From assembly GCA_964598335.1 (NCBI GenBank), contig CAZRBL010000011.1, positions 1,634 through 65,633 of the forward strand: DNA of 64,000 bases. The letters run 5' to 3'. Each line of letters begins with the position of its first letter. Position 1 is the stretch's first letter. This document shows positions 19,984 to 62,831 of this stretch, one piece after another. Source of the stretch: an uncultured Rhodospirillales bacterium (GTDB lineage: Bacteria > Pseudomonadota > Alphaproteobacteria > CAZRBL01). A program made the position numbers and the translations under genes. The notes below the pieces were generated by a model that saw only the letters and a program-made list of their open reading frames with translations, made no database searches and was not told the DNA's origin.

Positions 19984-21156
19984 CTAGGGCTGCGGGGCGT
20001 CTTTGGCTAAGTCTTGCGCCCTGCGTGACGGGCCGGCCGGCGGCGGCTTGCTGCCGGGTTTCGGCTGATTGGCCGGGAAGATGAGGAAGTCGCGGGCCGT
20101 CACCGGTGCGCCGTCTTCACCCACCGGGCACGAATCGGGATCGCCGCCGGCATTGATCATGCCGTTCGCATGATCGAGCCGTCGTGCCAGATCGTCCCGC
20201 ATGCCGGACCGATACCAGTCATTGACCAGGGCCAACCGGCCGGTGCCCTCAATGAAATTGCGACCGTCGGGCAAAACACCGATATCGGACAGCCAGGCGC
20301 TGTCGGGCTCGACTCGCGGGCAGCCGGCGGCGGCAACATAGGCGTATTGATAACGCTCCATCATCCGCACGATCTTGCTGTCATAGGCGGCGCGGCGTTC
20401 GGGCAGGGCAAACCATTGGTCGAAAGCGGCCCTGATCGCCTTCAGCGGACGCATTTCCTCCGCGCCGCGGCTGCGGCGCCGACGCATCTCATAAGCCTCG
20501 GCCAGATCGGCATAGGGCGCGTCGCGGCGTGCCTGCTTGCTGCGATAGCTTTTCCACGGGCCGTCATGACTCGCTTCCTTCAGCTCGAAGCAGACATGAA
20601 CGGCCATCGCCTCGGCGGCGGCTTCGAGCATGCGCTGCACCAGAACCTCGTTTTCCGGCGCAAGGTTGACCCGCAGCCATTCGCCGCTGTGGTCCTGCCA
20701 GACATGAAACAGCTCATGCGCCAGGCTCGCGACCTGTTCCTCCAGCGTGCCGGTGTCGCTGATCCCGACCAGCTTCGGCTCGCTGTCGGCGGCATAATAT
20801 CCGAGCACCTCTTCACTGAGGTCGGAGATCACCATCACGCCCGCTGTCTCCGCCGCCTTGAGCAAAGCGCGGCCGTCGGGAATTTTATCGAGGAGATCGA
20901 TGGCGGCGCGCAGGCGACGGCTCTGCTCGGGATGTTGCAGCGCCTGGCGCGCATGAGCGGCGACATCAGCAATCTCGGGCTCTTTCGAACCGCTGTCCCG
21001 GTCGCGTGCGAGCAGCCGCCGCGGCCGGGATGAGGCTGCGTGCGCCTGCCGCGGCGGCGGCAGGTCCGATAAAGCAGGAGGTTCGGTCGGGAACATCAAG
21101 GGATAACGCACGCTGATTCCATAACGCTCCCATTGTGCGGTGAATCGGGTCTGCAA
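19984..21156 (-). CDS. HExxH putative zinc metallopeptidase (DUF6782-like)
   Basis: SLAHELFHVWQ followed by RMLEAAAEA; Pro/Lys-rich tail. Start uncertain. Confidence 0.6.
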   Translation of the reverse strand: MQTRFTAQWERYGISVRYPLMFPTEPPALSDLPPPRQAHAASSRPRRLLARDRDSGSKEPEIADVAAHARQALQHPEQSRRLRAAIDLLDKIPDGRALLKAAETAGVMVISDLSEEVLGYYAADSEPKLVGISDTGTLEEQVASLAHELFHVWQDHSGEWLRVNLAPENEVLVQRMLEAAAEAMAVHVCFELKEASHDGPWKSYRSKQARRDAPYADLAEAYEMRRRRSRGAEEMRPLKAIRAAFDQWFALPERRAAYDSKIVRMMERYQYAYVAAAGCPRVEPDSAWLSDIGVLPDGRNFIEGTGRLALVNDWYRSGMRDDLARRLDHANGMINAGGDPDSCPVGEDGAPVTARDFLIFPANQPKPGSKPPPAGPSRRAQDLAKDAPQP

Positions 21157-35911: not shown

Positions 35912-36625
35912 TTACGATTGCCGCGGTCTTCGCAAGCCCGCGATTACCTTTAACAGCGCCGTTGGTATCAGTAGCCAAGCCCCAATCGCTGGTATGGCGG
36001 CGGCCTTAACCGTGAAGCGGAAATTGTCTAGGCCGACCACGCCGCTGCTCTCATCCGGGCTGAAGAATGTCAGTGACGCCGTCGAAACACCGGCCTGATT
36101 GACGGTTTGCGTGCCGGTAGTATCGCGCGTTTCAATCAGCGCGACGCTATTAACAAGGATCCCATCCTGATCGGCAAGCGACAGCGTCCCGCTCTCACCA
36201 TTCGTTCCGCCGTCGAGGTCATGGATATCGAAGTCGATCAGGGTCACCGGGCGGCTGAAATCGATATCGAGGGCCAGCCCGCTGGGGCTATTCTCGAAAA
36301 AGGTTTCGATCAGCGGTTCCTGCTCGCTGCAGCAGAAACTGAAACCGTCGGTGTTGATCCGAAATGTTTGTTGGCCGCTCAGAGCGCTGTCATCGGCTAT
36401 GAGGCTGAAATCGACTTGCGTCAGTAGCCGCCCTTGAGGATCGCGGATACTGAAGGAAAGCGGCCCGGCATAGCCGGACGTATAGCTTTGATCGAAGCCG
36501 ATGGCTGCTTCGAACAGCCCGCCGCCAATGGGTGTGGCGGAGACATCAAATATGAGCGCAGAGGCAGAGAGGGGAGGTATCATGAACCCCATCACTGCGA
36601 ACAGAATTATTGAAATGTTCCTCAC
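35912..36625 (-). CDS. Secreted protein with IPTL/PEP-CTERM-like sorting tail
   Basis: Signal peptide ending SASA; GGAGG RBS; ends AIPAIGAWLLIPTALLKVIAGLRRPRQS. Confidence 0.68.
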   Translation of the reverse strand: MRNISIILFAVMGFMIPPLSASALIFDVSATPIGGGLFEAAIGFDQSYTSGYAGPLSFSIRDPQGRLLTQVDFSLIADDSALSGQQTFRINTDGFSFCCSEQEPLIETFFENSPSGLALDIDFSRPVTLIDFDIHDLDGGTNGESGTLSLADQDGILVNSVALIETRDTTGTQTVNQAGVSTASLTFFSPDESSGVVGLDNFRFTVKAAAIPAIGAWLLIPTALLKVIAGLRRPRQS

Positions 36626-38828: not shown

Positions 38829-39122
38829 ATGTCGAGATTCACCCTACAAGGTCCACAGAAGGCGGTCAGCGAAGACGGCGTGATCGTCGCCTTCGCCGGA
38901 CGTCATGGCCTGCTTTACGAAACCGGCGGCTATCGTTTGACCGTCCCCTGCGAATCGGGCCGCCGGGAAAACGGCGAGGCCGGGATCATCGCCTATGTCT
39001 CGGGCGTCACCAGCTGGGACCAGCCCGCGGGCGGCGCGCTCGACGAGGCGGATCGGCGGAAACTGGCGGCCGATCTGACCGCTGCTGTGACCGAAATGGG
39101 AGGCTGGTGTGATGTCGCCTGA
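38829..39122 (+). CDS. Imm74-like immunity protein
   Basis: AGRHGLLYETGG.RLTV..E...GIIAYVSGVTSWD.P...LDEADRRKL matches my recollection of the Imm74 pattern (GR.GL.Y.E...I.SE..IY..SI..WD.P). Confidence 0.6.
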   Translation: MSRFTLQGPQKAVSEDGVIVAFAGRHGLLYETGGYRLTVPCESGRRENGEAGIIAYVSGVTSWDQPAGGALDEADRRKLAADLTAAVTEMGGWCDVA

Positions 39123-39906
39123 TCAGATGCCGGAAAACCCTGTGGCCAAGGCGCTGTTCATGATTGAGCATACCGCCGCTCTGCAGGGCTGGCTGCATGG
39201 CCCGCGCGCGCAGAAAACGGCTGAAGCGCTGTCGCAGGAGCCTTATTTCGACGATCTTGTCGACCTGTTCCTGGCGCGTCGCAGCGACAGTCCGCCGGAT
39301 ACCGAAACCATCGCCAGGCTGTCCCACACCGTCGCGCAATACGGCGCGATGGATATTCCGGCCGACAGCCTGGTCTATTTCTCGGGTCCGGAGATCAAGA
39401 CGGCAGAGGCGCATGCGGCGCGCGATCCGTCGATTTCCGTAATCCACGGTACGGCAGCCGGGGCGGCTCTCGAGATCATGCAATTGTTCAGCGACCCGCT
39501 CGATCCCGATGCCGGCGGTCCGATTCCCTTCGCCATCGGCACCGCAATGTGGGATCTCGCTTCCGAACGCACCGCGCTGGAGACGCCGCCCGGGCATATC
39601 CGCGTCTATGTTAATCCGGAAATCGGCTCGCACCCCGACAGCACTTTCCGTTCCGTCGAATTGCCGGCCCTTCTGGCCCGGGAGGATTCATCCCGTTTCT
39701 CGCTCAGCCTGATCAGGGTGGATAAGCAAAGCGGCGAAGAGCTGGTTGAGACGCGGCCTTTGGAGCAATGGCTCGATTATAGCCGCACGCGAATGTCCGG
39801 CATGGCCAGCCGCCAGGGCGTCTCGATCAAACCGGACGGCACGGTCGAGTTCTCAATGAACAAGCCGACGGTGGGCGGTGCAGGGAGTGTTTCCCCCAGC
39901 CCGTGA
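39112..39906 (+). CDS. ADP-ribosyl cyclase/CD38-like (Tox-ARC-like) NAD+ glycohydrolase candidate
   Basis: Ordered motifs VYFSG...MWDLASERTA...GHIRVYV...PDSTFRSVELPALL; overlaps the immunity-like gene. Confidence 0.6.
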   Translation: MSPDQMPENPVAKALFMIEHTAALQGWLHGPRAQKTAEALSQEPYFDDLVDLFLARRSDSPPDTETIARLSHTVAQYGAMDIPADSLVYFSGPEIKTAEAHAARDPSISVIHGTAAGAALEIMQLFSDPLDPDAGGPIPFAIGTAMWDLASERTALETPPGHIRVYVNPEIGSHPDSTFRSVELPALLAREDSSRFSLSLIRVDKQSGEELVETRPLEQWLDYSRTRMSGMASRQGVSIKPDGTVEFSMNKPTVGGAGSVSPSP

Positions 39907-39971: not shown

Positions 39972-40322
39972 ATGGCTGAAGCGAAACAACTTGTCCGTGC
40001 TGCGGACCACTTGATCGAGCCCCACGCCGACGATCAATCCGGGCCGGATATCGGCGATTTTGCCCATGCGCCGAATCGCGAAGGGCTGCTCTTGCGTCTG
40101 TTCGGTTGCACCCCGCGCTATGGCCGGCCGGAGATCCGGGCGCTGTATCAGGAAGTGGATCAGGAGGATCCCCTGGCCGTTTATGATTACTGTCGTTCAC
40201 AGGGGGTTGAGGTGCTTACCGATCAGGGTGAGCCGGTCCCGCCCTGGCGTGACATCGCCGTCATGCTGAAAGCTCGCGCACAGGGCCTCGATCCGTCGGC
40301 ACCTGCCGACAATGCTGCCTAA
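39972..40322 (+). CDS. Hypothetical 116-aa protein
   Basis: Clean ORF ending 15 bp before the HAD gene; no recognised family. Confidence 0.6.
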   Translation: MAEAKQLVRAADHLIEPHADDQSGPDIGDFAHAPNREGLLLRLFGCTPRYGRPEIRALYQEVDQEDPLAVYDYCRSQGVEVLTDQGEPVPPWRDIAVMLKARAQGLDPSAPADNAA

Positions 40323-40337
40323 TCGGGATACCGGGAC

Positions 40338-41714
40338 ATGGAAATCGCCTCACCGCTCGCTGTTCGCGCCTCCAGCAAGGATGTCGATAACAACATCCTC
40401 AATTATTTCGACAAATGGCGCGAACGCTCGACCAAGGCCTGGGATGGGCTGATGGCGCTATACAATCCTGCCGTCACCGAACAGGTGGTGCCGTCGCTGC
40501 TGCCGCAAATCGCCAGGGGCAACGCCGGGGCCAAGCGCATGCTGCAAAGCATTTTCGATGCCGATCTCGACGTCCTGTCATGGTCTGTTCGAATCGGTGA
40601 TGCCGCGGCGGAACCTGAGCCATATCTGCTCAGCGGCGTTCATACACTCGCCGGCAACGACGTCGTCGGGCCGATGCTGCAGTTTCTTGAGACCGTCAAG
40701 AACGGCGGCGACAACAATGCGATCAATATCGCCGAAGCCGGTTTCCGCAACGCTGCGAGCGCACGCTTTGAAGACCTTCTCGACAAGGCGGCAGCGGGCA
40801 GTAAAGAAGCCACCGAAGAAGTTCAGAACCTGATGAAGCTGGACCTTCTCAAGGTCGGTAAGGAAGCGATCCGCAATAATTATGGCGGCTTTCACAGCCT
40901 GCAGACACTGATCGAGGAAGCGCCGGCACTGGCCCGCCGCCGTGCCGCCATCGAATACACCTGGGATCATCATCCCGAAACCGCCCGGACCCGCGGCCTT
41001 CTGCTCGGCAATGAGCGTGAACTGATCATGGATTTCCGCGCCGAGCGGGATGAGAGCTGCAAGCTCTGGCCCGGCGGCCATGAGGCGATTGCCATGGTCG
41101 CAGAGGCTGGCGGCGTCAATTTCATCGACACCGATGCACGCTTCGAAGATCTGGCCGAGCGGCTTTTTCTGGCGGGCGTCCAGCTCGACCAGATCGACGG
41201 CGTTGTCTGCAAGCGCGACGTCAAGGGGGTCGATCCTGTCCGCAACCCGCCGCTGGACGGTGACAGTGCGATGTCGCGTTTTCGCCGCGCCCTGTTCGAT
41301 AAATGCTACGGCTTTACCGATGACAGCAAGGGCACGCAGGCCAGGGCTGATCTCGGGATTGCGATGTGGAAAAGTCACGGGCTCGAACCGCATGAGGTGG
41401 CGCATTCGGGCGACAGCTACAAGGACGGGATCCACGCCAAGCTGGCCGGGGCGCATTACCTGATGAACGTCAAGGGCGCCGATGTGGAGCCCGCGACGAC
41501 CCGGCTGATGAACATCGTCAAGCCGACCTATCCGCTCGGCCTTGAGATCGCCAATCAGAAGCTTGCGGAGGCCGGCGTTGAGGTCGGCCGCTATCTGGTC
41601 AACGGCATGGAGGATTTCCCCAAGGCCGTGACGATCATGCCGCGCCCGCCGGCGCCCGGCGCCAAGCGCTCGGTCAAGGCCGATATCGCGCCGAATTCGC
41701 CCAGTCCGGTTTAG
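40338..41714 (+). CDS. HAD-superfamily hydrolase with very large cap insertion
   Basis: Motif I DVDNN (residues 15-19), LWPGGHEAI..FIDTD (motif II), SKG (motif III), EVAHSGDSYKDG..A..AG (motif IV). Confidence 0.65.
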   Translation: MEIASPLAVRASSKDVDNNILNYFDKWRERSTKAWDGLMALYNPAVTEQVVPSLLPQIARGNAGAKRMLQSIFDADLDVLSWSVRIGDAAAEPEPYLLSGVHTLAGNDVVGPMLQFLETVKNGGDNNAINIAEAGFRNAASARFEDLLDKAAAGSKEATEEVQNLMKLDLLKVGKEAIRNNYGGFHSLQTLIEEAPALARRRAAIEYTWDHHPETARTRGLLLGNERELIMDFRAERDESCKLWPGGHEAIAMVAEAGGVNFIDTDARFEDLAERLFLAGVQLDQIDGVVCKRDVKGVDPVRNPPLDGDSAMSRFRRALFDKCYGFTDDSKGTQARADLGIAMWKSHGLEPHEVAHSGDSYKDGIHAKLAGAHYLMNVKGADVEPATTRLMNIVKPTYPLGLEIANQKLAEAGVEVGRYLVNGMEDFPKAVTIMPRPPAPGAKRSVKADIAPNSPSPV

Positions 41715-41726
41715 GAGGCATCGCCC

Positions 41727-42881
41727 ATGCCGCACGTTACATTCGCCGGAAACAGCCCCAGCTCGATTCCAATTTCCGACCGCTTTACCGCCGGCCTACT
41801 CGACAGCGACGATTTTGCCCTGCGTGACAGCAAACGCGAACTGGCCGCCGATGCCGTTGTGGTCATCGATCCGGACAGCGCCAGCAGCTATTTTCATGCC
41901 GCGCTGGTGGTCGAGAAAATCATCGATCCGAATTTCAAGAACACCCCGATTATCTATCAGGTGGCCGAGGGTGCGCCGAAGCCGAAAGCCTTTGAACTGC
42001 TCGAGCACCTCAAGGCGAATGGTGTTCTGGGCCAAACCGCCGAGGATTTCTTCGAGATCGCGCATGACGAGACGGATGTGCTGCGCATTCTGCATCAGCA
42101 CCTTGATCAAGGCGGCCCGGCCAAGGCTGATACGCCGCCGCAAAGCCGCGATATCGGCCCGGCCGAGCAAAAGGTGATGGACGACATCAATCAGCGCGGC
42201 GCCGACAAGGAAGAGGGCGAGTTCAAGATCGCCGTCTTCATGTCGGCCTCGACCAAGGACCCCGAAAAGCTCGCCCTGGCCCGCACCCTGGGCAATATGG
42301 TCGGCGAGGCCGGCTGGTCGGCGGTGTATGGCGCCAGCAATGTCGGCGCGATGAATGAATTCGGCAAAGGCGTGCATGAAAGCGGCGGGCATCTGTCCGG
42401 CGTCACCGTGCCCTGGCTGCTTGGCCAGCTGATCCCCGGCGCCGTCGATCCGACCGGTCGTGGCGGCGAAAAGCTCGACGCTGACGGCCTCAACCGCCTC
42501 GATGCTCTGGCGGTGGTCGAAGACACCAAGGTGCGGGTCAAGGACCAGCTGAAAATGTCCGACGCGCTGGTCGTGCTCGAGGGCGGCATCGGCACCTTCG
42601 AGGAACTCGCCTATGTCCTCGAGCTCAAACGCGCCGAGCCCGAGACCTATGGCGACAAGGCGGTGGTCATCGTCAACCGCGACGGTTTCTGGGATCCCGC
42701 CATCGAGATGCTGAAGGCCGACGGCTTTGACCCGAAAACCGACTTCGTCAGCGTCACCGATGAGGCGGGCCTGAAAGCCGCCCTGATCGACCATGCCGAC
42801 GCCATGGGCAAACCGACCCGACCCGCCTTCGAGAACGCCCCGGCGCGCAAGTCCCCCGGGCCGGATCTGTCGCCGAGCTGA
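41727..42881 (+). CDS. LOG/SLOG-family nucleotide phosphoribohydrolase with degenerate N-terminal LOG-like domain
   Basis: C-half VYGASNVGAM, RVK..L..SDALVVLEGGIGTFEEL, VIVNRDGFWDP. N-half ADAVVV..NTPIIY..FELLEHLKANG looks like a decayed copy. Confidence 0.8.
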   Translation: MPHVTFAGNSPSSIPISDRFTAGLLDSDDFALRDSKRELAADAVVVIDPDSASSYFHAALVVEKIIDPNFKNTPIIYQVAEGAPKPKAFELLEHLKANGVLGQTAEDFFEIAHDETDVLRILHQHLDQGGPAKADTPPQSRDIGPAEQKVMDDINQRGADKEEGEFKIAVFMSASTKDPEKLALARTLGNMVGEAGWSAVYGASNVGAMNEFGKGVHESGGHLSGVTVPWLLGQLIPGAVDPTGRGGEKLDADGLNRLDALAVVEDTKVRVKDQLKMSDALVVLEGGIGTFEELAYVLELKRAEPETYGDKAVVIVNRDGFWDPAIEMLKADGFDPKTDFVSVTDEAGLKAALIDHADAMGKPTRPAFENAPARKSPGPDLSPS

Positions 42882-51522: not shown

Positions 51523-51624
51523 CGCCGGCGCGCTATACAATAATTCGGGAAATAAAACAGTGTGGTTTTTGGGCAGCCGGACTATATTGCGTCCCGAGTC
51601 GGGTTGAACCATGAGGGACGACGC

Positions 51625-52428
51625 ATGAGCGCTGACCCCGAAGTAACGCGATATCGGACAATTTTCATCTCCGATATCCATCTTGGCACGCGCGGTTGTC
51701 AGGCTGAATTACTGCTTGATTTTCTGCGCTATACCGAGAGTGAATCGCTCTATCTGGTCGGCGATATCGTCGATGGCTGGCGGCTTAAACGCCAATGGTA
51801 CTGGCCGCAGGCGCATAATGACGTGGTGCAGAAACTGCTGCGCAAGGCCCGTAAGGGGACGGACATTATTTACGTGCCGGGCAATCATGACGAAGGATTT
51901 CGGGAATATCTCGGACTCGAATTCGGGCGTATTCGCTTGGAGAATGAATCGATTTTCGAGGCCGCCGACGGTCGAAAATTCCTTGTGCTGCACGGCGACC
52001 AATTCGACATGGTCGTCAACAACGTCAAATGGCTCGCCTTTGTCGGCGATTACGCCTATCGGGCGGCGCTGATCGCCAATACCGCCTTCAACTATGTCCG
52101 CCGCAAGCTCGGCTTCGGCTATTGGTCCCTATCCGCCTATCTTAAGCACAAGGTCAAGAACGCCGTTGCCTATATCGGCACCTATGAAGAGGCGGTCGCC
52201 TCGGAGGCGAGGCGGCGCGGCGTTGACGGCGTGATCTGCGGTCACATCCATCATGCTGAAATGCGCGATTTCGATGAGATCACCTATATCAATGACGGTG
52301 ATTGGGTGGAAAGCTGTACGGCGCTGGTCGAGCATCATGACGGTCGTATGGAAATTCTTCGCTGGGCCGACATCTTTGCAGCGCGCGAAGGACGCAAAAT
52401 CGCTGAATTGCAGCCGGCCGCCGCCTGA
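51625..52428 (+). CDS. PlcP-like metallophosphoesterase (often auto-annotated UDP-2,3-diacylglucosamine hydrolase)
   Basis: ISDIHLG, GDIVDGW, WPQAHNDVVQKLLRKARKG, PGNHDE, HGDQFD, CGHIHH, GDWVESCTAL. Confidence 0.8.
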   Translation: MSADPEVTRYRTIFISDIHLGTRGCQAELLLDFLRYTESESLYLVGDIVDGWRLKRQWYWPQAHNDVVQKLLRKARKGTDIIYVPGNHDEGFREYLGLEFGRIRLENESIFEAADGRKFLVLHGDQFDMVVNNVKWLAFVGDYAYRAALIANTAFNYVRRKLGFGYWSLSAYLKHKVKNAVAYIGTYEEAVASEARRRGVDGVICGHIHHAEMRDFDEITYINDGDWVESCTALVEHHDGRMEILRWADIFAAREGRKIAELQPAAA

Positions 52429-57850: not shown

Positions 57851-58003
57851 GACTGAACTGATCCATAGCCTAATGTGATTGGCGCTGGTGCAGTTGTCGC
57901 GGTTTCCTCTCCGCATGATCGCATGGCACCCAACGAAAAATACTTCGGCCTCAGAGTCGTTCATCGACCCCGGCCGATCCATAACAGATGGAGGCAGAAA
58001 GAG

Positions 58004-59338
58004 ATGGATGAGGATCGCGACTACAACACCGGGGGCTTGTTGACACTTGAAGACAGCCCGATGGAAGAGAGCCATGCTGACGGCTTGATGTCGACGCTGG
58101 TCTATCGAAGTCGCGAAACCCACAAGATGATGCCGCGTGAATTGAGCGGCCTGATCGCCAACGCGCAATCTGCCAATGCAGCGGCCGGCATCACCGGGAT
58201 GGTGATTTATGATCGCGGTCGATTCCTGCAATGGCTTGAGGGACCCGCCTCCTCCGTCAACGCGCTAAGGGCGCGGATCGGTCGCGACAGCCGGCATACG
58301 GATATCGAAGTTCTTACCTGCCTCGACAGCAACACGCATGAGCGCTGCTTCGACGGCTGGAACATGCAACTGGTTCAGCGGGCGGGACAGTTTGACATTG
58401 TCGATCTTTCCCTGCCTGAACCCCCGTCGCTATTGCTCGATTGCCTGCACAAAAATCCCGAAGACCTCGTCGAGCAGCTTCGCTGCTATGCCGGCAATCG
58501 CGATTTAACCGCTGCCGGCCATATTCCCTATGCGGTCAAGATCGATCAGGGCGTCGACCGTCTTGCCGATCTGCGCAGCCTGATGGAAGAGCCCAGAGAT
58601 CTTGACGGATCGGCGTCATCCTGCGGCTGCGTGCAGCACGCGCCGCGGCAATTGCTCGATGCCGGACAGGAATTGGCGCGTGCGCTGCTCTCCGCCAGGG
58701 AGGGAGAGGCCCATGATGCTATCCGGCGGATTTGCGGTCAGACGGCGCATAGCATGCGGGCCGTCGCTCAGCTTTTTGAAATTGCCGCTCGCTCACTGGG
58801 CGACAGCTGGATGCGCGATGAGTGCAGCGAATACGATATCGCCATGGCGATGTGCAATCTTCAGACAACCTTGCGCTCGCTTGCTCCCTGGGCACAGAAT
58901 CGCAATCACCGTCGCGAGGCGGCCTGCGGCTCGGCGCTGATCGCGCCGCTGCCGGGTGAGGTACACATTCTAGGTGCGACCCTCAAATCGGAATTGTTGG
59001 CAAGTGAAGGTTGGGCGACCGAATGCGATTTCCCCGACCGCATTGCCGATCTTGAGGACTCGGTGTCGCGCAATTGGTATGATGTAGCGATTATTGCGCT
59101 CTCGCGCGTTTTCCGCCGCGAAGACAGCCTGTTGCGGGTTGCCGATGCGGTGGCCCGCACGCGCCGCGCGTCCTGCAATCCCAATATCCGCTTGATCGTC
59201 GGCGGCCGGATCTTCGGCGATAACCCGGATGCCCGCGCCCAGGTCGGGGCGGATGCGCGTTGTGCCAGCGCCGGCGATGTAAGCCGAGCGATACGCGAAG
59301 CAATGGCTGCGGTCCCGACGAGCGGTGCCGTGCACTAA
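58004..59338 (+). CDS. AppA-like BLUF + SCHIC/B12-binding-like antirepressor
   Basis: BLUF: LVYRS, N...GITG, FLQWLEG, DSRH, WNM. C-terminal LPGEVHILG domain of the AppA/PpaA type. Confidence 0.82.
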   Translation: MDEDRDYNTGGLLTLEDSPMEESHADGLMSTLVYRSRETHKMMPRELSGLIANAQSANAAAGITGMVIYDRGRFLQWLEGPASSVNALRARIGRDSRHTDIEVLTCLDSNTHERCFDGWNMQLVQRAGQFDIVDLSLPEPPSLLLDCLHKNPEDLVEQLRCYAGNRDLTAAGHIPYAVKIDQGVDRLADLRSLMEEPRDLDGSASSCGCVQHAPRQLLDAGQELARALLSAREGEAHDAIRRICGQTAHSMRAVAQLFEIAARSLGDSWMRDECSEYDIAMAMCNLQTTLRSLAPWAQNRNHRREAACGSALIAPLPGEVHILGATLKSELLASEGWATECDFPDRIADLEDSVSRNWYDVAIIALSRVFRREDSLLRVADAVARTRRASCNPNIRLIVGGRIFGDNPDARAQVGADARCASAGDVSRAIREAMAAVPTSGAVH

Positions 59339-61793: not shown

Positions 61794-62831
61794 ATGGCTC
61801 AGTTTTTTCCCTTTCCCGCGATTGTCGGTCAGGATGAGATGAAATTCGCGCTGCTGATCGCGGCGGTCGACCGCAGTGTCGGCGGCGTGCTGGCGATCGG
61901 CGACCGCGGTACCGGCAAATCGACCGCGATCCGGTCTTTCGCTGCGCTGTTGCCGCCGATGAAGGTGGTGAAAGCCTGTCGCTATAATGCAGATCCGGAT
62001 GAACCGCCCTCACGCTATGCCGCGGTCTGCGATCCGTCATCGCCCTGGCAGCAGGGCCGCAAGGTGCCGAGCGAGACGGTTCCGGTACCGGTGGTCGATC
62101 TGCCGCTCGGCGCGACCGAAGATCGGGTGGTCGGGGCGCTGGATCTCGAACGCGCTCTGACGCGCGGCGAAAAGGCGTTCGAGCCCGGCCTGTTGGCGCA
62201 GGCGCATCGCGGTTTCTTGTATATCGACGAGGTCAATTTGCTCGAAGACCACCTTGTCGATCTGCTGCTCGACGTTGCCGCATCGGGCGAAAACATCGTC
62301 GAGCGCGAAGGGCTGAGCATTCGCCATCCTGCCCGGTTCGTGCTGATCGGCAGCGGCAACCCCGAGGAAGGAGAGCTGCGCCCGCAATTGCAGGATCGCT
62401 TCGGCCTGTCGGTGGAAATCAGCACGCCCCAAGACCTCAAGCAGCGTGTCGAGGTGTTGCGTCGCCGCGAAGCCTTCGAGCGCGATCCCGAGAGCTTCCT
62501 GGCGCAATGGGAAAAAGCCGGCAATAAGCTGACGGCGCAGATCAAGAAAGCGCGCAGCCTGCGCCCTGAGGTCACCGTGTCTGATGCGATGATGGAAACC
62601 ATCTCGCGGCTTTGTCTGGCAATCGGATCCGACGGGCTGCGTGGCGAGCTGACGATCATGCGTGCGGCGCAATCGGCGGCGGCGCTCGACGGCAAGACAG
62701 CGGTCGAGGAAAGCCATGTCCGGCAGGTAACAGCGATGTCCTTGCGGCACCGTCTGCGCCGGGATCCGCTCGATCAATCGGGTTCCGACGTCCGTATCGA
62801 CCGCGCCATAAGTGAAGTGCTGCCCGCATGA
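61794..62831 (+). CDS. bchI: Magnesium chelatase subunit I
   Basis: FPFPAIVGQDEMK, GDRGTGKST, LPLGATEDRVVG, LYIDEVNLL, GNPEEGELRPQLQDRFG. Confidence 0.96.
   Translation: MAQFFPFPAIVGQDEMKFALLIAAVDRSVGGVLAIGDRGTGKSTAIRSFAALLPPMKVVKACRYNADPDEPPSRYAAVCDPSSPWQQGRKVPSETVPVPVVDLPLGATEDRVVGALDLERALTRGEKAFEPGLLAQAHRGFLYIDEVNLLEDHLVDLLLDVAASGENIVEREGLSIRHPARFVLIGSGNPEEGELRPQLQDRFGLSVEISTPQDLKQRVEVLRRREAFERDPESFLAQWEKAGNKLTAQIKKARSLRPEVTVSDAMMETISRLCLAIGSDGLRGELTIMRAAQSAAALDGKTAVEESHVRQVTAMSLRHRLRRDPLDQSGSDVRIDRAISEVLPA

What the first reader, a model, noticed from the sequence alone, without database searches (positions are those of the whole stretch)
38829..39906. Stand-alone Tox-ARC-like toxin with its immunity gene placed upstream
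Seen: the 97-aa gene overlaps the start of the 264-aa gene. The latter has ordered motifs FSG / W..AS / V.V / S.F..VELPAL, like CD38-fold cyclases, with the catalytic-type Glu kept. The usual TLExT reads IHGT, which could shift cyclase versus hydrolase activity. Recalled: Imm74 neighbours Tox-ARC domains. Immunity-first order with no N-terminal delivery domain resembles bacteria-killing T4SS effector/immunity pairs rather than RHS/CDI loci (inference).
Basis: partly seen in the sequence, partly recalled or inferred. Interest (0 to 1): 0.8.

Follow-up and report, generated by a model that had tools for sequence, protein, structure and literature searches.

The report
Stand-alone CD38-like NADase with upstream inhibitor
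Two overlapping genes next to thrS encode a very divergent, stand-alone CD38/ADP-ribosyl-cyclase-fold enzyme and, just upstream, a small protein that weakly resembles the Imm74 immunity proteins of bacterial NAD-destroying toxins; it is a rare, unusually organised variant of a toxin kind first characterised in 2025.

Summary

The 264-aa protein has no Pfam hit and only 11 distant true relatives among 1.84 billion representatives. A profile of those relatives matches solved bacterial ADP-ribosyl cyclase (ARC) toxins, Aplysia cyclase and CD38 (E 2e-8 to 2e-4). An AlphaFold model (pLDDT 83) retrieves only CD38, BST-1 and Aplysia cyclase as its top 29 PDB matches. The catalytic Glu (E183), Trp147 and Ser151 are kept. 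The second Glu (CD38 E146) most likely reads His112.

The small protein and its only homologue each hit Pfam Imm74 alone, below threshold (E 0.04 and 0.008). The pair recurs as a unit in one related Rhodospirillales genome, at another chromosomal place and much more diverged than a housekeeping neighbour.

Nine other family members have no such partner. There is no trafficking domain and no secretion-system gene in the 64 kb.

Best reading (0.55): an NAD(P)+-cleaving ARC enzyme held in check by a co-translated Imm74-like inhibitor, as a toxin-immunity or toxin-antitoxin cassette with unknown delivery. Main rival (0.28): a non-toxic, Nac1-like cADPR-forming enzyme. The T4SS analogy has no support. 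This is a new variant of a known kind.

The parts
38829..39122 (+). 97-aa acidic (pI 4.8) small protein, Imm74-like; candidate inhibitor (immunity or antitoxin) of the downstream enzyme
   Evidence: ORF. Its only Pfam hit is Imm74, E 0.04, covering 13-74 of 80 profile positions. The homologue in the same position in L001 is 36% identical (E 3e-24) and also hits only Imm74 (E 0.0077). hhalign against Firmicute Imm74 proteins gives E 0.017 around Y-x6-W-[DE]-x-P.
39098..39103 (+). GGGAGG Shine-Dalgarno sequence for the ARC gene, inside the 3' end of the small gene (translational coupling)
   Evidence: Read directly from the sequence. It lies 5 nt before GTG 39109 and 8 nt before ATG 39112.
39112..39906 (+). 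264-aa stand-alone ADP-ribosyl cyclase (CD38/Tox-ARC superfamily) enzyme
   Evidence: Family profile against PDB: 9RO8 'ADP-ribosylcyclase toxin' 2.3e-8, porcine CD38 1.2e-5, Aplysia cyclase 1.9e-4, Tac1 (9OUF) 2.1e-4, human CD38 2.4e-4. hhalign against ARC-toxin fragments gives 94.9% probability, E 4.7e-8. AlphaFold2 with the alignment gives pLDDT 83 and pTM 0.80. The top 29 Foldseek PDB matches are all ARC enzymes.
39112..39342 (+). Residues 1-77: family-conserved helical N-terminal region, probably the helical lobe and not a delivery domain
   Evidence: pLDDT 88-98 with helices at 10-19, 22-25, 30-41, 46-55 and 64-77. The region is alignable across homologues. No Pfam domain was found and no signal-peptide-like N-terminus is visible.
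39379..39387 (+). Phe90-Ser91-Gly92, aligned to Aplysia W77-S78-G79 (CD38 W125-S126)
   Evidence: HMMER alignment. F90 is nearly invariant.
39445..39447 (+). His112, at the position of the 'second' Glu (CD38 E146, Aplysia E98, Tac1 E516, ARCtox E299)
   Evidence: HMMER aligns 'viHstpaGamL' to 'TLEDTLPGYML'. H112 is nearly invariant. It follows the predicted second beta-strand. The N-lobe segment searched alone finds no ARC protein, so the assignment is probable, not proven.
39472..39474 (+). Glu121, nearly invariant acidic residue; it aligns with Aplysia N107, which by my recalled CD38 numbering corresponds to Asp155. It is an alternative candidate for the second acidic residue.
   Evidence: In ARC toxins the spacing from the TLE Glu to the Trp (24 residues in ARCtox) is closer to E121-W147 (26) than to H112-W147 (35).
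39550..39564 (+). Trp147...Ser151, aligned with the Trp...Ser of porcine CD38 'FWNLLSKRFA' (human W189...S193 by my recalled numbering)
   Evidence: HMMER alignments to porcine CD38 and 9RO8. W147 is nearly invariant.
39658..39660 (+). Glu183, the catalytic Glu (CD38 E226, Tac1 E573, ARCtox E356)
   Evidence: 'STFRSVELP' aligns to 'STFGRVEV' of CD38 and 'WENVELP' of 9RO8. It is invariant in A2.
39790..39903 (+). Residues 227-264: low-confidence Pro/Ser/Gly-rich tail, partly shared with P0002 (SRQG...KP...GAG)
   Evidence: pLDDT 37-62; pairwise alignment. Function unknown.
39972..42881 (+). Context only: three tightly spaced same-strand genes of 116 aa, 458 aa and 384 aa (C-terminal LOG/SLOG domain). 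Linkage to the pair is not shown.
   Evidence: These genes are absent from the only other pair-bearing locus, L001.

Best explanation
The locus is a two-gene cassette. The 264-aa protein is a stand-alone, two-lobed enzyme of the ADP-ribosyl cyclase (CD38/Tox-ARC) superfamily. By homology it cleaves the nicotinamide-ribose bond of NAD+ (and probably NADP+), with Glu183 as the catalytic acid and Trp147, Ser151 and Phe90/Ser91 lining the cleft, and it releases ADP-ribose and/or cyclic ADP-ribose. His112 most likely replaces the second Glu, the residue that drives hydrolysis of the cyclic intermediate in CD38 and Tac1. The product mix is therefore expected to lean towards cADPR compared with Tac1 or ARCtox. 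The 97-aa protein encoded just upstream is translationally coupled and is a divergent Imm74-like protein. It binds the enzyme's cleft and keeps it inactive in the producer. Together they form a conflict module: toxin plus immunity, or an antitoxin-first toxin-antitoxin pair analogous to RES-Xre. The delivery or trigger is unknown.

Shown here: the ARC fold and superfamily, the conserved catalytic residues, the gene overlap, and the conservation of the pair as a unit.

Inferred: NAD turnover, the product shift, inhibition by the small protein, and toxicity.
For: ARC superfamily:
- The family profile matches 9RO8 at 2.3e-8, with CD38, Aplysia cyclase and Tac1 at 1e-5 to 2e-4.
- hhalign against bona fide ARC-toxin fragments gives 94.9% probability.
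- The AlphaFold2 model has pLDDT 83, and its 29 best PDB matches are all ARC enzymes at probability 0.92-1.0, followed by a drop to 0.12.
- Four of ten homologues give sub-threshold PF02267 hits.
- Catalytic residues are conserved.

Partner:
- Both small proteins hit only Imm74 in Pfam.
- hhalign against Imm74 gives P 0.017 in the same W-[DE]-x-P register.
[quoted passage not shown] Tci1 and ARCimm neutralise their toxins and are modelled to plug the cleft (PMC12356396; PMC12605009).

Cassette behaviour:
- The pair recurs in an uncultured Rhodospirillales MAG.
- A neighbouring housekeeping gene there is 75% identical to window 51562-52428. The pair lies at another chromosomal place and is only 34-41% (enzyme) and 36% (small protein) identical.
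- The genes overlap by 11 nt and share a Shine-Dalgarno sequence.

Product shift: Tac1 E516A releases cADPR, and Nac1, with Ala at that site, makes roughly equal amounts of cADPR and ADPR (PMC12356396).
Against: - The Imm74 assignment is below Pfam's threshold (14.5 and 16.7 bits against 27.1), and BLASTP against real Imm74 proteins finds nothing.
- Nine other loci of this clade have no Imm74-like neighbour and sit among housekeeping genes. Two of them share synteny. This argues that the clade as a whole is tolerated without immunity.
- There is no trafficking domain, no signal peptide and no secretion-system gene in 64 kb, and there is no PADLOC hit.
- The position of CD38 W125 is Phe. The equivalent W273A change abolished ARCtox toxicity, so activity could be weak.
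- The His112 mapping rests on a single collinear HMMER alignment plus predicted topology. The N-lobe searched alone finds no ARC protein.
- No co-fold and no experiment were done.
Confidence: 0.55

Rival explanations
1. The enzyme is a non-toxic, Nac1-like ARC enzyme. It makes cADPR or a related NAD-derived nucleotide for signalling or metabolism. The small upstream protein is a regulator or is unrelated. The enzyme may work together with the downstream LOG/SLOG-domain protein.
For: Most clade members lack any immunity-like neighbour and lie in conserved housekeeping contexts: MlaD-DUF2155-aat-ARC-CDF in L002 and L012, and mdh/sucC in L005. The second Glu is replaced, as in Nac1. There is no delivery domain and no secretion system. 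A LOG/SLOG protein lies 1.8 kb downstream on the same strand. ARC, TIR and SLOG are grouped as NAD/ADPR-network domains (PMC9503650).
Against: This locus and its nearest relative do carry a conserved, translationally coupled Imm74-like partner. The pair is diverged and relocated relative to housekeeping genes. The downstream genes are absent from the other pair-bearing locus.
Confidence: 0.28
2. This is the first reader's analogy: an interbacterial effector/immunity pair delivered by a type IV secretion system, like Xanthomonas X-Tfe/X-Tfi.
For: The immunity-first order and the lack of an N-terminal trafficking domain. Several homologues end in basic, Pro-rich tails with net charge +3 to +7 over the last 30 residues, loosely like VirB/D4 signals.
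Against: No T4SS gene, and no other secretion gene, lies in the 64-kb window. The protein has no Pfam hit of any kind, so no delivery domain was detected at either end. The tail of the window protein is uncharged (net 0). No T4SS-linked ARC protein was found in the literature search.
Confidence: 0.07
3. The protein has the ARC fold but a different chemistry. With His112 and Phe90 in the active site, it acts on another nucleotide or nucleoside substrate, or performs base exchange, rather than degrading NAD+.
For: Two of the four canonical residues differ: W125 is Phe and E146 is His. Pfam PF02267 does not detect the protein. ARC belongs to a wider hydrolase superfamily that acts on varied nucleotides (PMC9503650).
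Against: The catalytic Glu and the Trp/Ser/Arg motif align closely with NAD-cleaving ARC enzymes. Phe can stack as Trp does. CD38 itself catalyses base exchange at the same site.
Confidence: 0.1

Closest known systems
Tac1/Tci1 of Streptococcus parasanguinis (T7SSb LXG-ARC toxin plus Imm74 immunity; PDB 9OUF; PMC12356396)
   Same: Same ARC catalytic fold, with the catalytic Glu and the Trp aligned (profile E 2.1e-4). The partner is of the Imm74 kind, adjacent to the enzyme gene.
   Different: Tac1 is a roughly 145-aa C-terminal domain of an LXG protein, its immunity gene lies downstream, and T7SS and Lap genes are nearby. It keeps the second Glu (E516) and makes only ADPR. Here the protein is a 264-aa stand-alone enzyme with an extra helical N-terminal region. 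The partner is upstream and overlapping, His stands at the second-Glu position, and no secretion genes are nearby.
Pantoea ananatis PAAR-ARCtox/ARCimm (T6SS; PDB 9RO8 by best match; PMC12605009)
   Same: This is the best solved match of the family profile (E 2.3e-8). The W...S...G.V.A...VELP.L..N..V motif string is shared.
   Different: ARCtox is fused to PAAR. [quoted passage not shown] In ARCtox, W273, E299, W323 and E356 are all needed; here the equivalents read F, H, W and E.
Nac1 of Actinophytocola oryzae (non-toxic ARC; PMC12356396)
   Same: Stand-alone ARC enzyme without a trafficking domain. A residue other than Glu occupies the second-Glu position, so cADPR release is expected.
   Different: Nac1 has a Sec signal peptide and no immunity gene. 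This protein has neither a signal peptide nor, at this locus, an absence of a partner. The substitution is His, not Ala.
Eukaryotic CD38, BST-1 and Aplysia ADP-ribosyl cyclase (Pfam PF02267)
   Same: A full-size two-lobed architecture of about 250 residues. Foldseek aligns 184-255 columns, and HMMER aligns both lobes with the Aplysia cyclase.
   Different: The protein has no disulfide-rich insert, no membrane anchor and no signal sequence. TM-scores are only 0.33-0.47. The window protein has no PF02267 hit at E <= 1, and the hits of its homologues are below the gathering score.
RES-Xre and MbcT-MbcA NAD-degrading toxin-antitoxin modules (from general knowledge)
   Same: An intracellular NAD-destroying enzyme paired with a small neutralising protein. 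In RES-Xre the antitoxin comes first in a coupled arrangement.
   Different: The folds are unrelated (ART-like RES domain). Those antitoxins carry DNA-binding domains, and none is detectable here.

Membership tests
ADP-ribosyl cyclase / CD38 superfamily (Tox-ARC, PF02267) | Significant sequence or profile similarity to known ARC enzymes | tested here: met
   Profile A1 against PDB gives 2.3e-8 (9RO8), 1.2e-5 (CD38) and 1.9e-4 (Aplysia). hhalign gives 94.9% probability.
ADP-ribosyl cyclase / CD38 superfamily (Tox-ARC, PF02267) | Passes the curated Pfam PF02267 gathering score | tested here: not met
   The window protein has no hit at E <= 1. Four of ten homologues hit at 10.7-17.4 bits against a cut-off of 25.
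ADP-ribosyl cyclase / CD38 superfamily (Tox-ARC, PF02267) | Two-lobed alpha/beta ARC fold | tested here: met
   The AlphaFold2 model has pLDDT 83. The top 29 Foldseek PDB matches are all CD38, BST-1 or Aplysia cyclase at probability 0.92-1.0, although TM-scores are only 0.33-0.47.
ADP-ribosyl cyclase / CD38 superfamily (Tox-ARC, PF02267) | Catalytic Glu (CD38 E226) | tested here: met
   E183 in STFRSVELP aligns to the VE of CD38 and 9RO8. It is invariant in A2.
ADP-ribosyl cyclase / CD38 superfamily (Tox-ARC, PF02267) | Two active-site Trp residues (CD38 W125, W189) | tested here: inconclusive
   W147 matches W189. The W125 position is Phe90, which is aromatic and nearly invariant in the family.
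ADP-ribosyl cyclase / CD38 superfamily (Tox-ARC, PF02267) | Second Glu (CD38 E146, TLE motif) | tested here: not met
   His112 aligns to Aplysia E98. Bona fide ARC-toxin fragments keep TLE. Glu121 lies nearby as a possible substitute.
ADP-ribosyl cyclase / CD38 superfamily (Tox-ARC, PF02267) | NAD(P)+ glycohydrolase or cyclase activity | not testable with these tools
   Requires an enzyme assay.
Polymorphic toxin system carrying Tox-ARC (T5/T6/T7SS, CDI, RHS) | N-terminal trafficking or secretion-targeting domain | tested here: not met
   No Pfam, NCBIfam or PADLOC domain was found. Residues 1-77 are conserved in the family and belong to the modelled domain.
Polymorphic toxin system carrying Tox-ARC (T5/T6/T7SS, CDI, RHS) | Immunity gene immediately downstream of the toxin | tested here: not met
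   The conserved partner is upstream. The 116-aa downstream gene is absent from L001.
Polymorphic toxin system carrying Tox-ARC (T5/T6/T7SS, CDI, RHS) | Secretion-system or adaptor genes in the neighbourhood | tested here: not met
   The window carries core genes such as pnp, infB, nusA, uvrB, gyrB, thrS and lpxK. The rest of the genome was not seen.
Imm74 (PF15603) | Passes the Pfam gathering score | tested here: not met
   14.5 bits (window) and 16.7 bits (L001) against 27.1. In each case Imm74 is the only Pfam hit and spans most of the profile.
Imm74 (PF15603) | Profile similarity to verified Imm74 proteins | tested here: inconclusive
   hhalign of A4 against four Firmicute Imm74 proteins gives E 0.017 over 33 columns. 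BLASTP finds nothing.
Imm74 (PF15603) | Encoded next to an ARC-domain gene | tested here: met
   Adjacent and overlapping here, and adjacent in L001.
Imm74 (PF15603) | Binds and neutralises the ARC enzyme | not testable with these tools
Binding and rescue assays are needed.
Nac (non-toxic bacterial ARC, Colautti et al. 2025) | No immunity gene beside the enzyme | tested here: not met
   An Imm74-like partner is present here and in L001. The feature is met in nine other loci of the clade.
Nac (non-toxic bacterial ARC, Colautti et al. 2025) | A residue other than Glu at the second-Glu position | tested here: met
   His112.
Type II toxin-antitoxin module | Antitoxin first, with overlapping or coupled genes | tested here: met
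   An 11-nt overlap and an internal Shine-Dalgarno sequence.
Type II toxin-antitoxin module | Antitoxin with a DNA-binding domain for autoregulation | tested here: not met
   No HTH, RHH or AbrB domain was detected.
T4SS interbacterial effector/immunity (X-Tfe/X-Tfi) | C-terminal XVIPCD-type signal and T4SS genes | tested here: not met
   The protein has no Pfam hit of any kind, and no T4SS genes lie in 64 kb. Whether Pfam holds an XVIPCD model was not verified.

The most novel reading that the evidence does not exclude
The window protein belongs to a previously unrecognised, rare alphaproteobacterial clade of full-length CD38-like enzymes in which His replaces the hydrolysis-promoting Glu. 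These enzymes would natively make cADPR, or a variant NAD-derived nucleotide, as a signal. In this genome the enzyme would be gated by an inhibitor recruited from the Imm74 immunity family, and its product would be read or processed by the downstream LOG/SLOG protein. That would be a bacterial cADPR signalling or defence circuit built from toxin-immunity parts.
Probability: 0.12. Interest if true: 0.8.

Novelty: new variant of a known kind. Interest (0 to 1): 0.5.

Why it matters
Bacterial ARC enzymes were characterised biochemically only in 2025. One study found them only as domains fused to secretion modules. The other raised the open question of what immunity-less, cADPR-forming 'Nac' enzymes are for.

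This locus sits between the two. It is a stand-alone, full-size ARC enzyme with a natural His at the residue that decides between cyclase and hydrolase output, and it is still paired with an Imm74-like protein, in reversed and overlapping gene order. The clade is invisible to Pfam and very rare: 11 true relatives among 1.84 billion representative proteins.

If the pair is a toxin and its inhibitor, ARC/Imm74 modules extend beyond polymorphic toxins to TA-like cassettes. If the enzyme makes cADPR, it offers a tractable natural system for asking what cADPR does in bacteria. It would also be a natural test of the role of the second Glu.

Tried and rejected
- **Direct searches with the 264-aa protein found nothing.** These were Pfam, NCBIfam, PADLOC and PHROGs, PDB phmmer, the word-indexed 5.8-billion-protein search, which returned only the protein itself, tblastn against plasmids, the first genome-contig scan with the single protein (the second, with alignment A2, recovered only the L001 contig) and viral contigs. 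BFVD Foldseek gave no viral ARC-like match.
- **Single-sequence AlphaFold2 was useless** (pLDDT 41). An alignment was needed.
- **The small protein alone** returned only itself. Its two-sequence profile matched nothing in PDB.
- **P0011 and P0014**, long proteins from the representative search, are repeat proteins (an adhesin-like protein and a eukaryotic repeat protein). I rejected them as spurious.
- **The last protein search**, run with a 9RO8 fragment, returned only short C-terminal ARC fragments. It gave no N-lobe sequences, so the second-Glu position could not be aligned profile-to-profile with bacterial toxins.
- **The N-lobe segment searched alone** against PDB gave only designed-repeat artefacts.
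- **No signs of a mobile element or of regulatory signals** were found: no flanking repeats, Rfam RNA families or sigma-70 promoter-like sites, terminator-like sites no more frequent than in shuffled sequence and none between the ARC gene and the next gene, and no compositional anomaly.
- **Downstream 116-aa gene as the 'real' immunity:** rejected as the conserved partner because it is absent from L001.
- **Shared SPSP-like C-terminal tails** of three adjacent proteins as a sorting signal: not pursued, because Pro/Ser-rich tails occur in about 8 of 53 ORFs of the window.
Full report
**1. What is in the sequence**

On the + strand, ATG 38829 to TGA 39122 encodes a 97-aa acidic protein. ATG 39112 (or GTG 39109) to TGA 39906 encodes a 264-aa protein. 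The genes overlap by 11 nt. A GGGAGG Shine-Dalgarno sequence for the second gene lies inside the end of the first, at 39098-39103.

**2. The large protein is an ADP-ribosyl cyclase (ARC) superfamily enzyme, but a very divergent one**

On its own the protein hits nothing in Pfam, NCBIfam, PADLOC, PHROGs or PDB. It is a singleton in the word-indexed protein search.

An exhaustive HMMER scan of 1.84 billion representative proteins found only 14 hits at E <= 1e-3. One is the protein itself. Two are repeat-protein artefacts. The other eleven are small stand-alone proteins, 24-41% identical, which share F90, H112, G117, L120, E121, W147, R153 and G161.

- A profile of this alignment matches 9RO8 'ADP-ribosylcyclase toxin' at 2.3e-8. 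By its sequence this is the Pantoea ananatis ARCtox family.
- The same profile matches porcine CD38 at 1.2e-5, Aplysia cyclase at 1.9e-4, Tac1 (9OUF, mislabelled 'Ribonuclease') at 2.1e-4 and human CD38 at 2.4e-4.
- A profile-profile comparison with 16 bona fide ARC-toxin fragments gives 94.9% probability, E 4.7e-8.
- Four of the ten homologues scanned give sub-threshold PF02267 hits.
- With the 12-sequence alignment, AlphaFold2 goes from pLDDT 41 to pLDDT 83 and pTM 0.80.
- The 29 best Foldseek matches of that model in the PDB are all CD38, BST-1 or Aplysia cyclase, at probability 0.92-1.0. The next match has probability 0.12. TM-scores are modest, at 0.33-0.47, so lobe orientation and the N-terminal helices differ.

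**3. Active site**

| Residue here | Aligned residue in known ARC enzymes | Source |
|---|---|---|
| F90-S91-G92 | Aplysia W77-S78-G79 (CD38 W125-S126) | |
| H112 | Aplysia E98 (CD38 E146) | |
| E121 | Aplysia N107 (CD38 D155 by my recalled numbering) | |
| W147...S151..R153 | CD38 W189...S193..R195 (human numbering recalled) | |
| E183 | Catalytic Glu: CD38 E226, Tac1 E573, ARCtox E356 | |

Caveats: the N-lobe segment alone does not find ARC proteins. The spacing to the Trp also leaves E121 as a conceivable functional second acid.

In CD38 and Tac1 the second Glu promotes hydrolysis of the cyclic intermediate. Tac1 E516A releases cADPR, and Nac1, which naturally has Ala there, makes roughly equal amounts of cADPR and ADPR (PMC12356396). 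A shift towards cADPR is thus a reasonable inference, but an untested one.

**4. The small protein**

- Its only Pfam hit is Imm74: E 0.04, 14.5 bits against a cut-off of 27.1, covering 13-74 of 80 profile positions.
- The one other genome with a close ARC relative (P0002, on contig CAZPBH010000253 of an uncultured Rhodospirillales MAG) has a 97-aa gene in the same upstream position.
- That protein is 36% identical to the window protein (E 3e-24). It too hits only Imm74 (E 0.0077, 6-78 of 80 positions).
- Verified Imm74 proteins were taken from Firmicute loci, where they follow ARC fragments. They align weakly with the pair around Y-x6-W-[DE]-x-P (hhalign E 0.094, then 0.017 with a more diverse set). 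BLASTP sees nothing.
- Imm74 is the documented primary immunity protein of Tox-ARC (PMC3482391).

I rate 'divergent Imm74-like partner' as likely, at about 0.7, but formally inconclusive.

**5. Behaviour of the cassette**

The MAG is a fairly close relative of the source organism. Its Metallophos gene, next to its ARC pair, is 75% identical in protein to window 51562-52428. Yet the pair lies at a different chromosomal place in the two genomes, and it is only 34-41% (enzyme) and 36% (small protein) identical. Fast divergence and relocation as a two-gene unit are typical of conflict modules.

The genes downstream in the window are absent from the MAG locus. An identical 1,751-bp stretch occurs in run SRR7048223.

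**6. The wider clade argues for caution**

Nine further loci carry homologues without any Imm74-like neighbour (HMM search). They lie among housekeeping genes.

- L002 and L012 share MlaD-DUF2155-aat-ARC-CDF synteny.
- L005 lies between mdh and sucC.
- L010 lies between an ankyrin-repeat gene and usg/groESL.

By the argument of Colautti et al., an ARC enzyme with no immunity gene is probably not a toxin. The clade may therefore be basically a Nac-like enzyme family, with one sub-branch (the window and the MAG) that needs, or has acquired, an inhibitor.

**7. Context in the window**

The 64 kb is core chromosome of a phototrophic alphaproteobacterium. It carries pnp, infB, nusA, uvrB, mgtE, malic enzyme, gyrB, thrS, a glutamate-cysteine ligase, rsmE, a TonB-dependent receptor, ubiA, waaA, lpxK, an AppA-like BLUF/SCHIC protein and a ChlI/BchI-type protein.

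- No T4SS, T6SS, T7SS, CDI or RHS gene was found.
- There is no GC or GC3 anomaly.
- There are no flanking repeats, Rfam RNA families or sigma-70 promoter-like sites, and terminator-like sites are no more frequent than in shuffled sequence.
- The protein has no trafficking domain and no signal-peptide-like N-terminus.
The only faint hint is the basic Pro-rich C-termini of several homologues, which the window protein itself lacks.

**8. Comparison with what is known**

Known ARC toxins are roughly 145-aa C-terminal domains of LXG, PAAR, VgrG, RHS or CdiA proteins with the immunity gene downstream (PMC12356396). [quoted passage not shown]

This locus differs in four ways: architecture (stand-alone, full size), gene order (partner first and overlapping), active site (F, H, W, E instead of W, E, W, E) and lineage (a rare alphaproteobacterial clade unseen by Pfam). 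It fails the membership tests for a polymorphic toxin and for PF02267 and PF15603 at their curated thresholds. It passes the tests for the ARC superfamily.

**9. Verdict**

Best explanation (0.55): an NAD(P)+-cleaving ARC enzyme kept inactive by a co-translated Imm74-like inhibitor. It would be a toxin-immunity or toxin-antitoxin cassette with unknown delivery or trigger, and probably with more cADPR output than Tac1.

Main rival (0.28): a Nac-like, non-toxic cADPR-forming enzyme, possibly linked to the downstream LOG/SLOG protein.

Novelty: a new variant of a known kind. Interest: 0.5.

Noticed in passing
window 39972-42881 (+): Three tightly spaced same-strand genes follow the pair, with gaps of 65, 15 and 12 nt. 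They encode a 116-aa protein, a 458-aa protein and a 384-aa protein; the first two have no family match. The C-terminal half of the 384-aa protein is a LOG/SLOG (TIGR00730-like) nucleotide N-glycosidase domain with an 'EGGIGTFEE' motif behind an unknown 160-aa N-terminal region. The 116-aa and 458-aa proteins are singletons at 90% identity, and the 384-aa protein's cluster has one further member. SLOG and ARC both belong to the NAD/ADPR network, but these genes are absent from the other pair-bearing locus.
   Followed up: partly
window 39880-39903, 41690-41711, 42855-42878: The ARC protein, the 458-aa protein and the 384-aa protein end in similar tails (...GSVSPSP...NSPSPV...PDLSPS). Pro/Ser-rich C-termini occur in about 8 of 53 ORFs of the window, so this may be compositional.
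   Followed up: partly
L002:6001-6666 and L012:5929-6666, with flanks: Immunity-less ARC homologues sit in a conserved housekeeping neighbourhood (MlaD, DUF2155, aat, ARC, cation-efflux) in two genomes of very different GC content (65% and 40%). This suggests vertical inheritance of the enzyme in some alphaproteobacterial lineages. Ankyrin-repeat genes lie nearby in L002 and L010.
   Followed up: partly
L014:4001-4498, L017:2501-3016, L018:2079-2613, L015:4001-4809: Eighty-six clusters of short (42-116 aa) C-terminal ARC fragments exist as separate genes. In three of the four Firmicute loci examined the fragment is followed by a 77-aa Imm74 gene, the pattern of orphan toxin cassettes. In Streptococcus (L015) the downstream 188-aa protein, annotated DUF6572, begins with an Imm74-like domain (E 1e-14 against the Imm74 profile).
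   Followed up: partly
PDB 9OUF: The Tac1 crystal structure is listed in the PDB sequence file under the molecule name 'Ribonuclease'. This could mislead annotation by name.
   Followed up: yes
window 35912-36625 (-): A 237-aa protein with no family match has an N-terminal hydrophobic segment. It ends in ...IPAIGAWLLIPTALLKVIAGLRRPRQS, which looks like a VPLPA/PEP-CTERM-type sorting tail.
   Followed up: no
window 57875-59338 (+) and 61794-62831 (+): An AppA-like BLUF plus SCHIC photoreceptor/antirepressor and a ChlI/BchI-type Mg-chelatase subunit indicate a phototrophic alphaproteobacterium. The 75% identical Metallophos orthologue in a Rhodospirillales MAG points to that order.
   Followed up: partly
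window 19984-21156 (-): A DUF6782 / M78 (IrrE-like) putative metallopeptidase lies in an otherwise housekeeping stretch.
   Followed up: no
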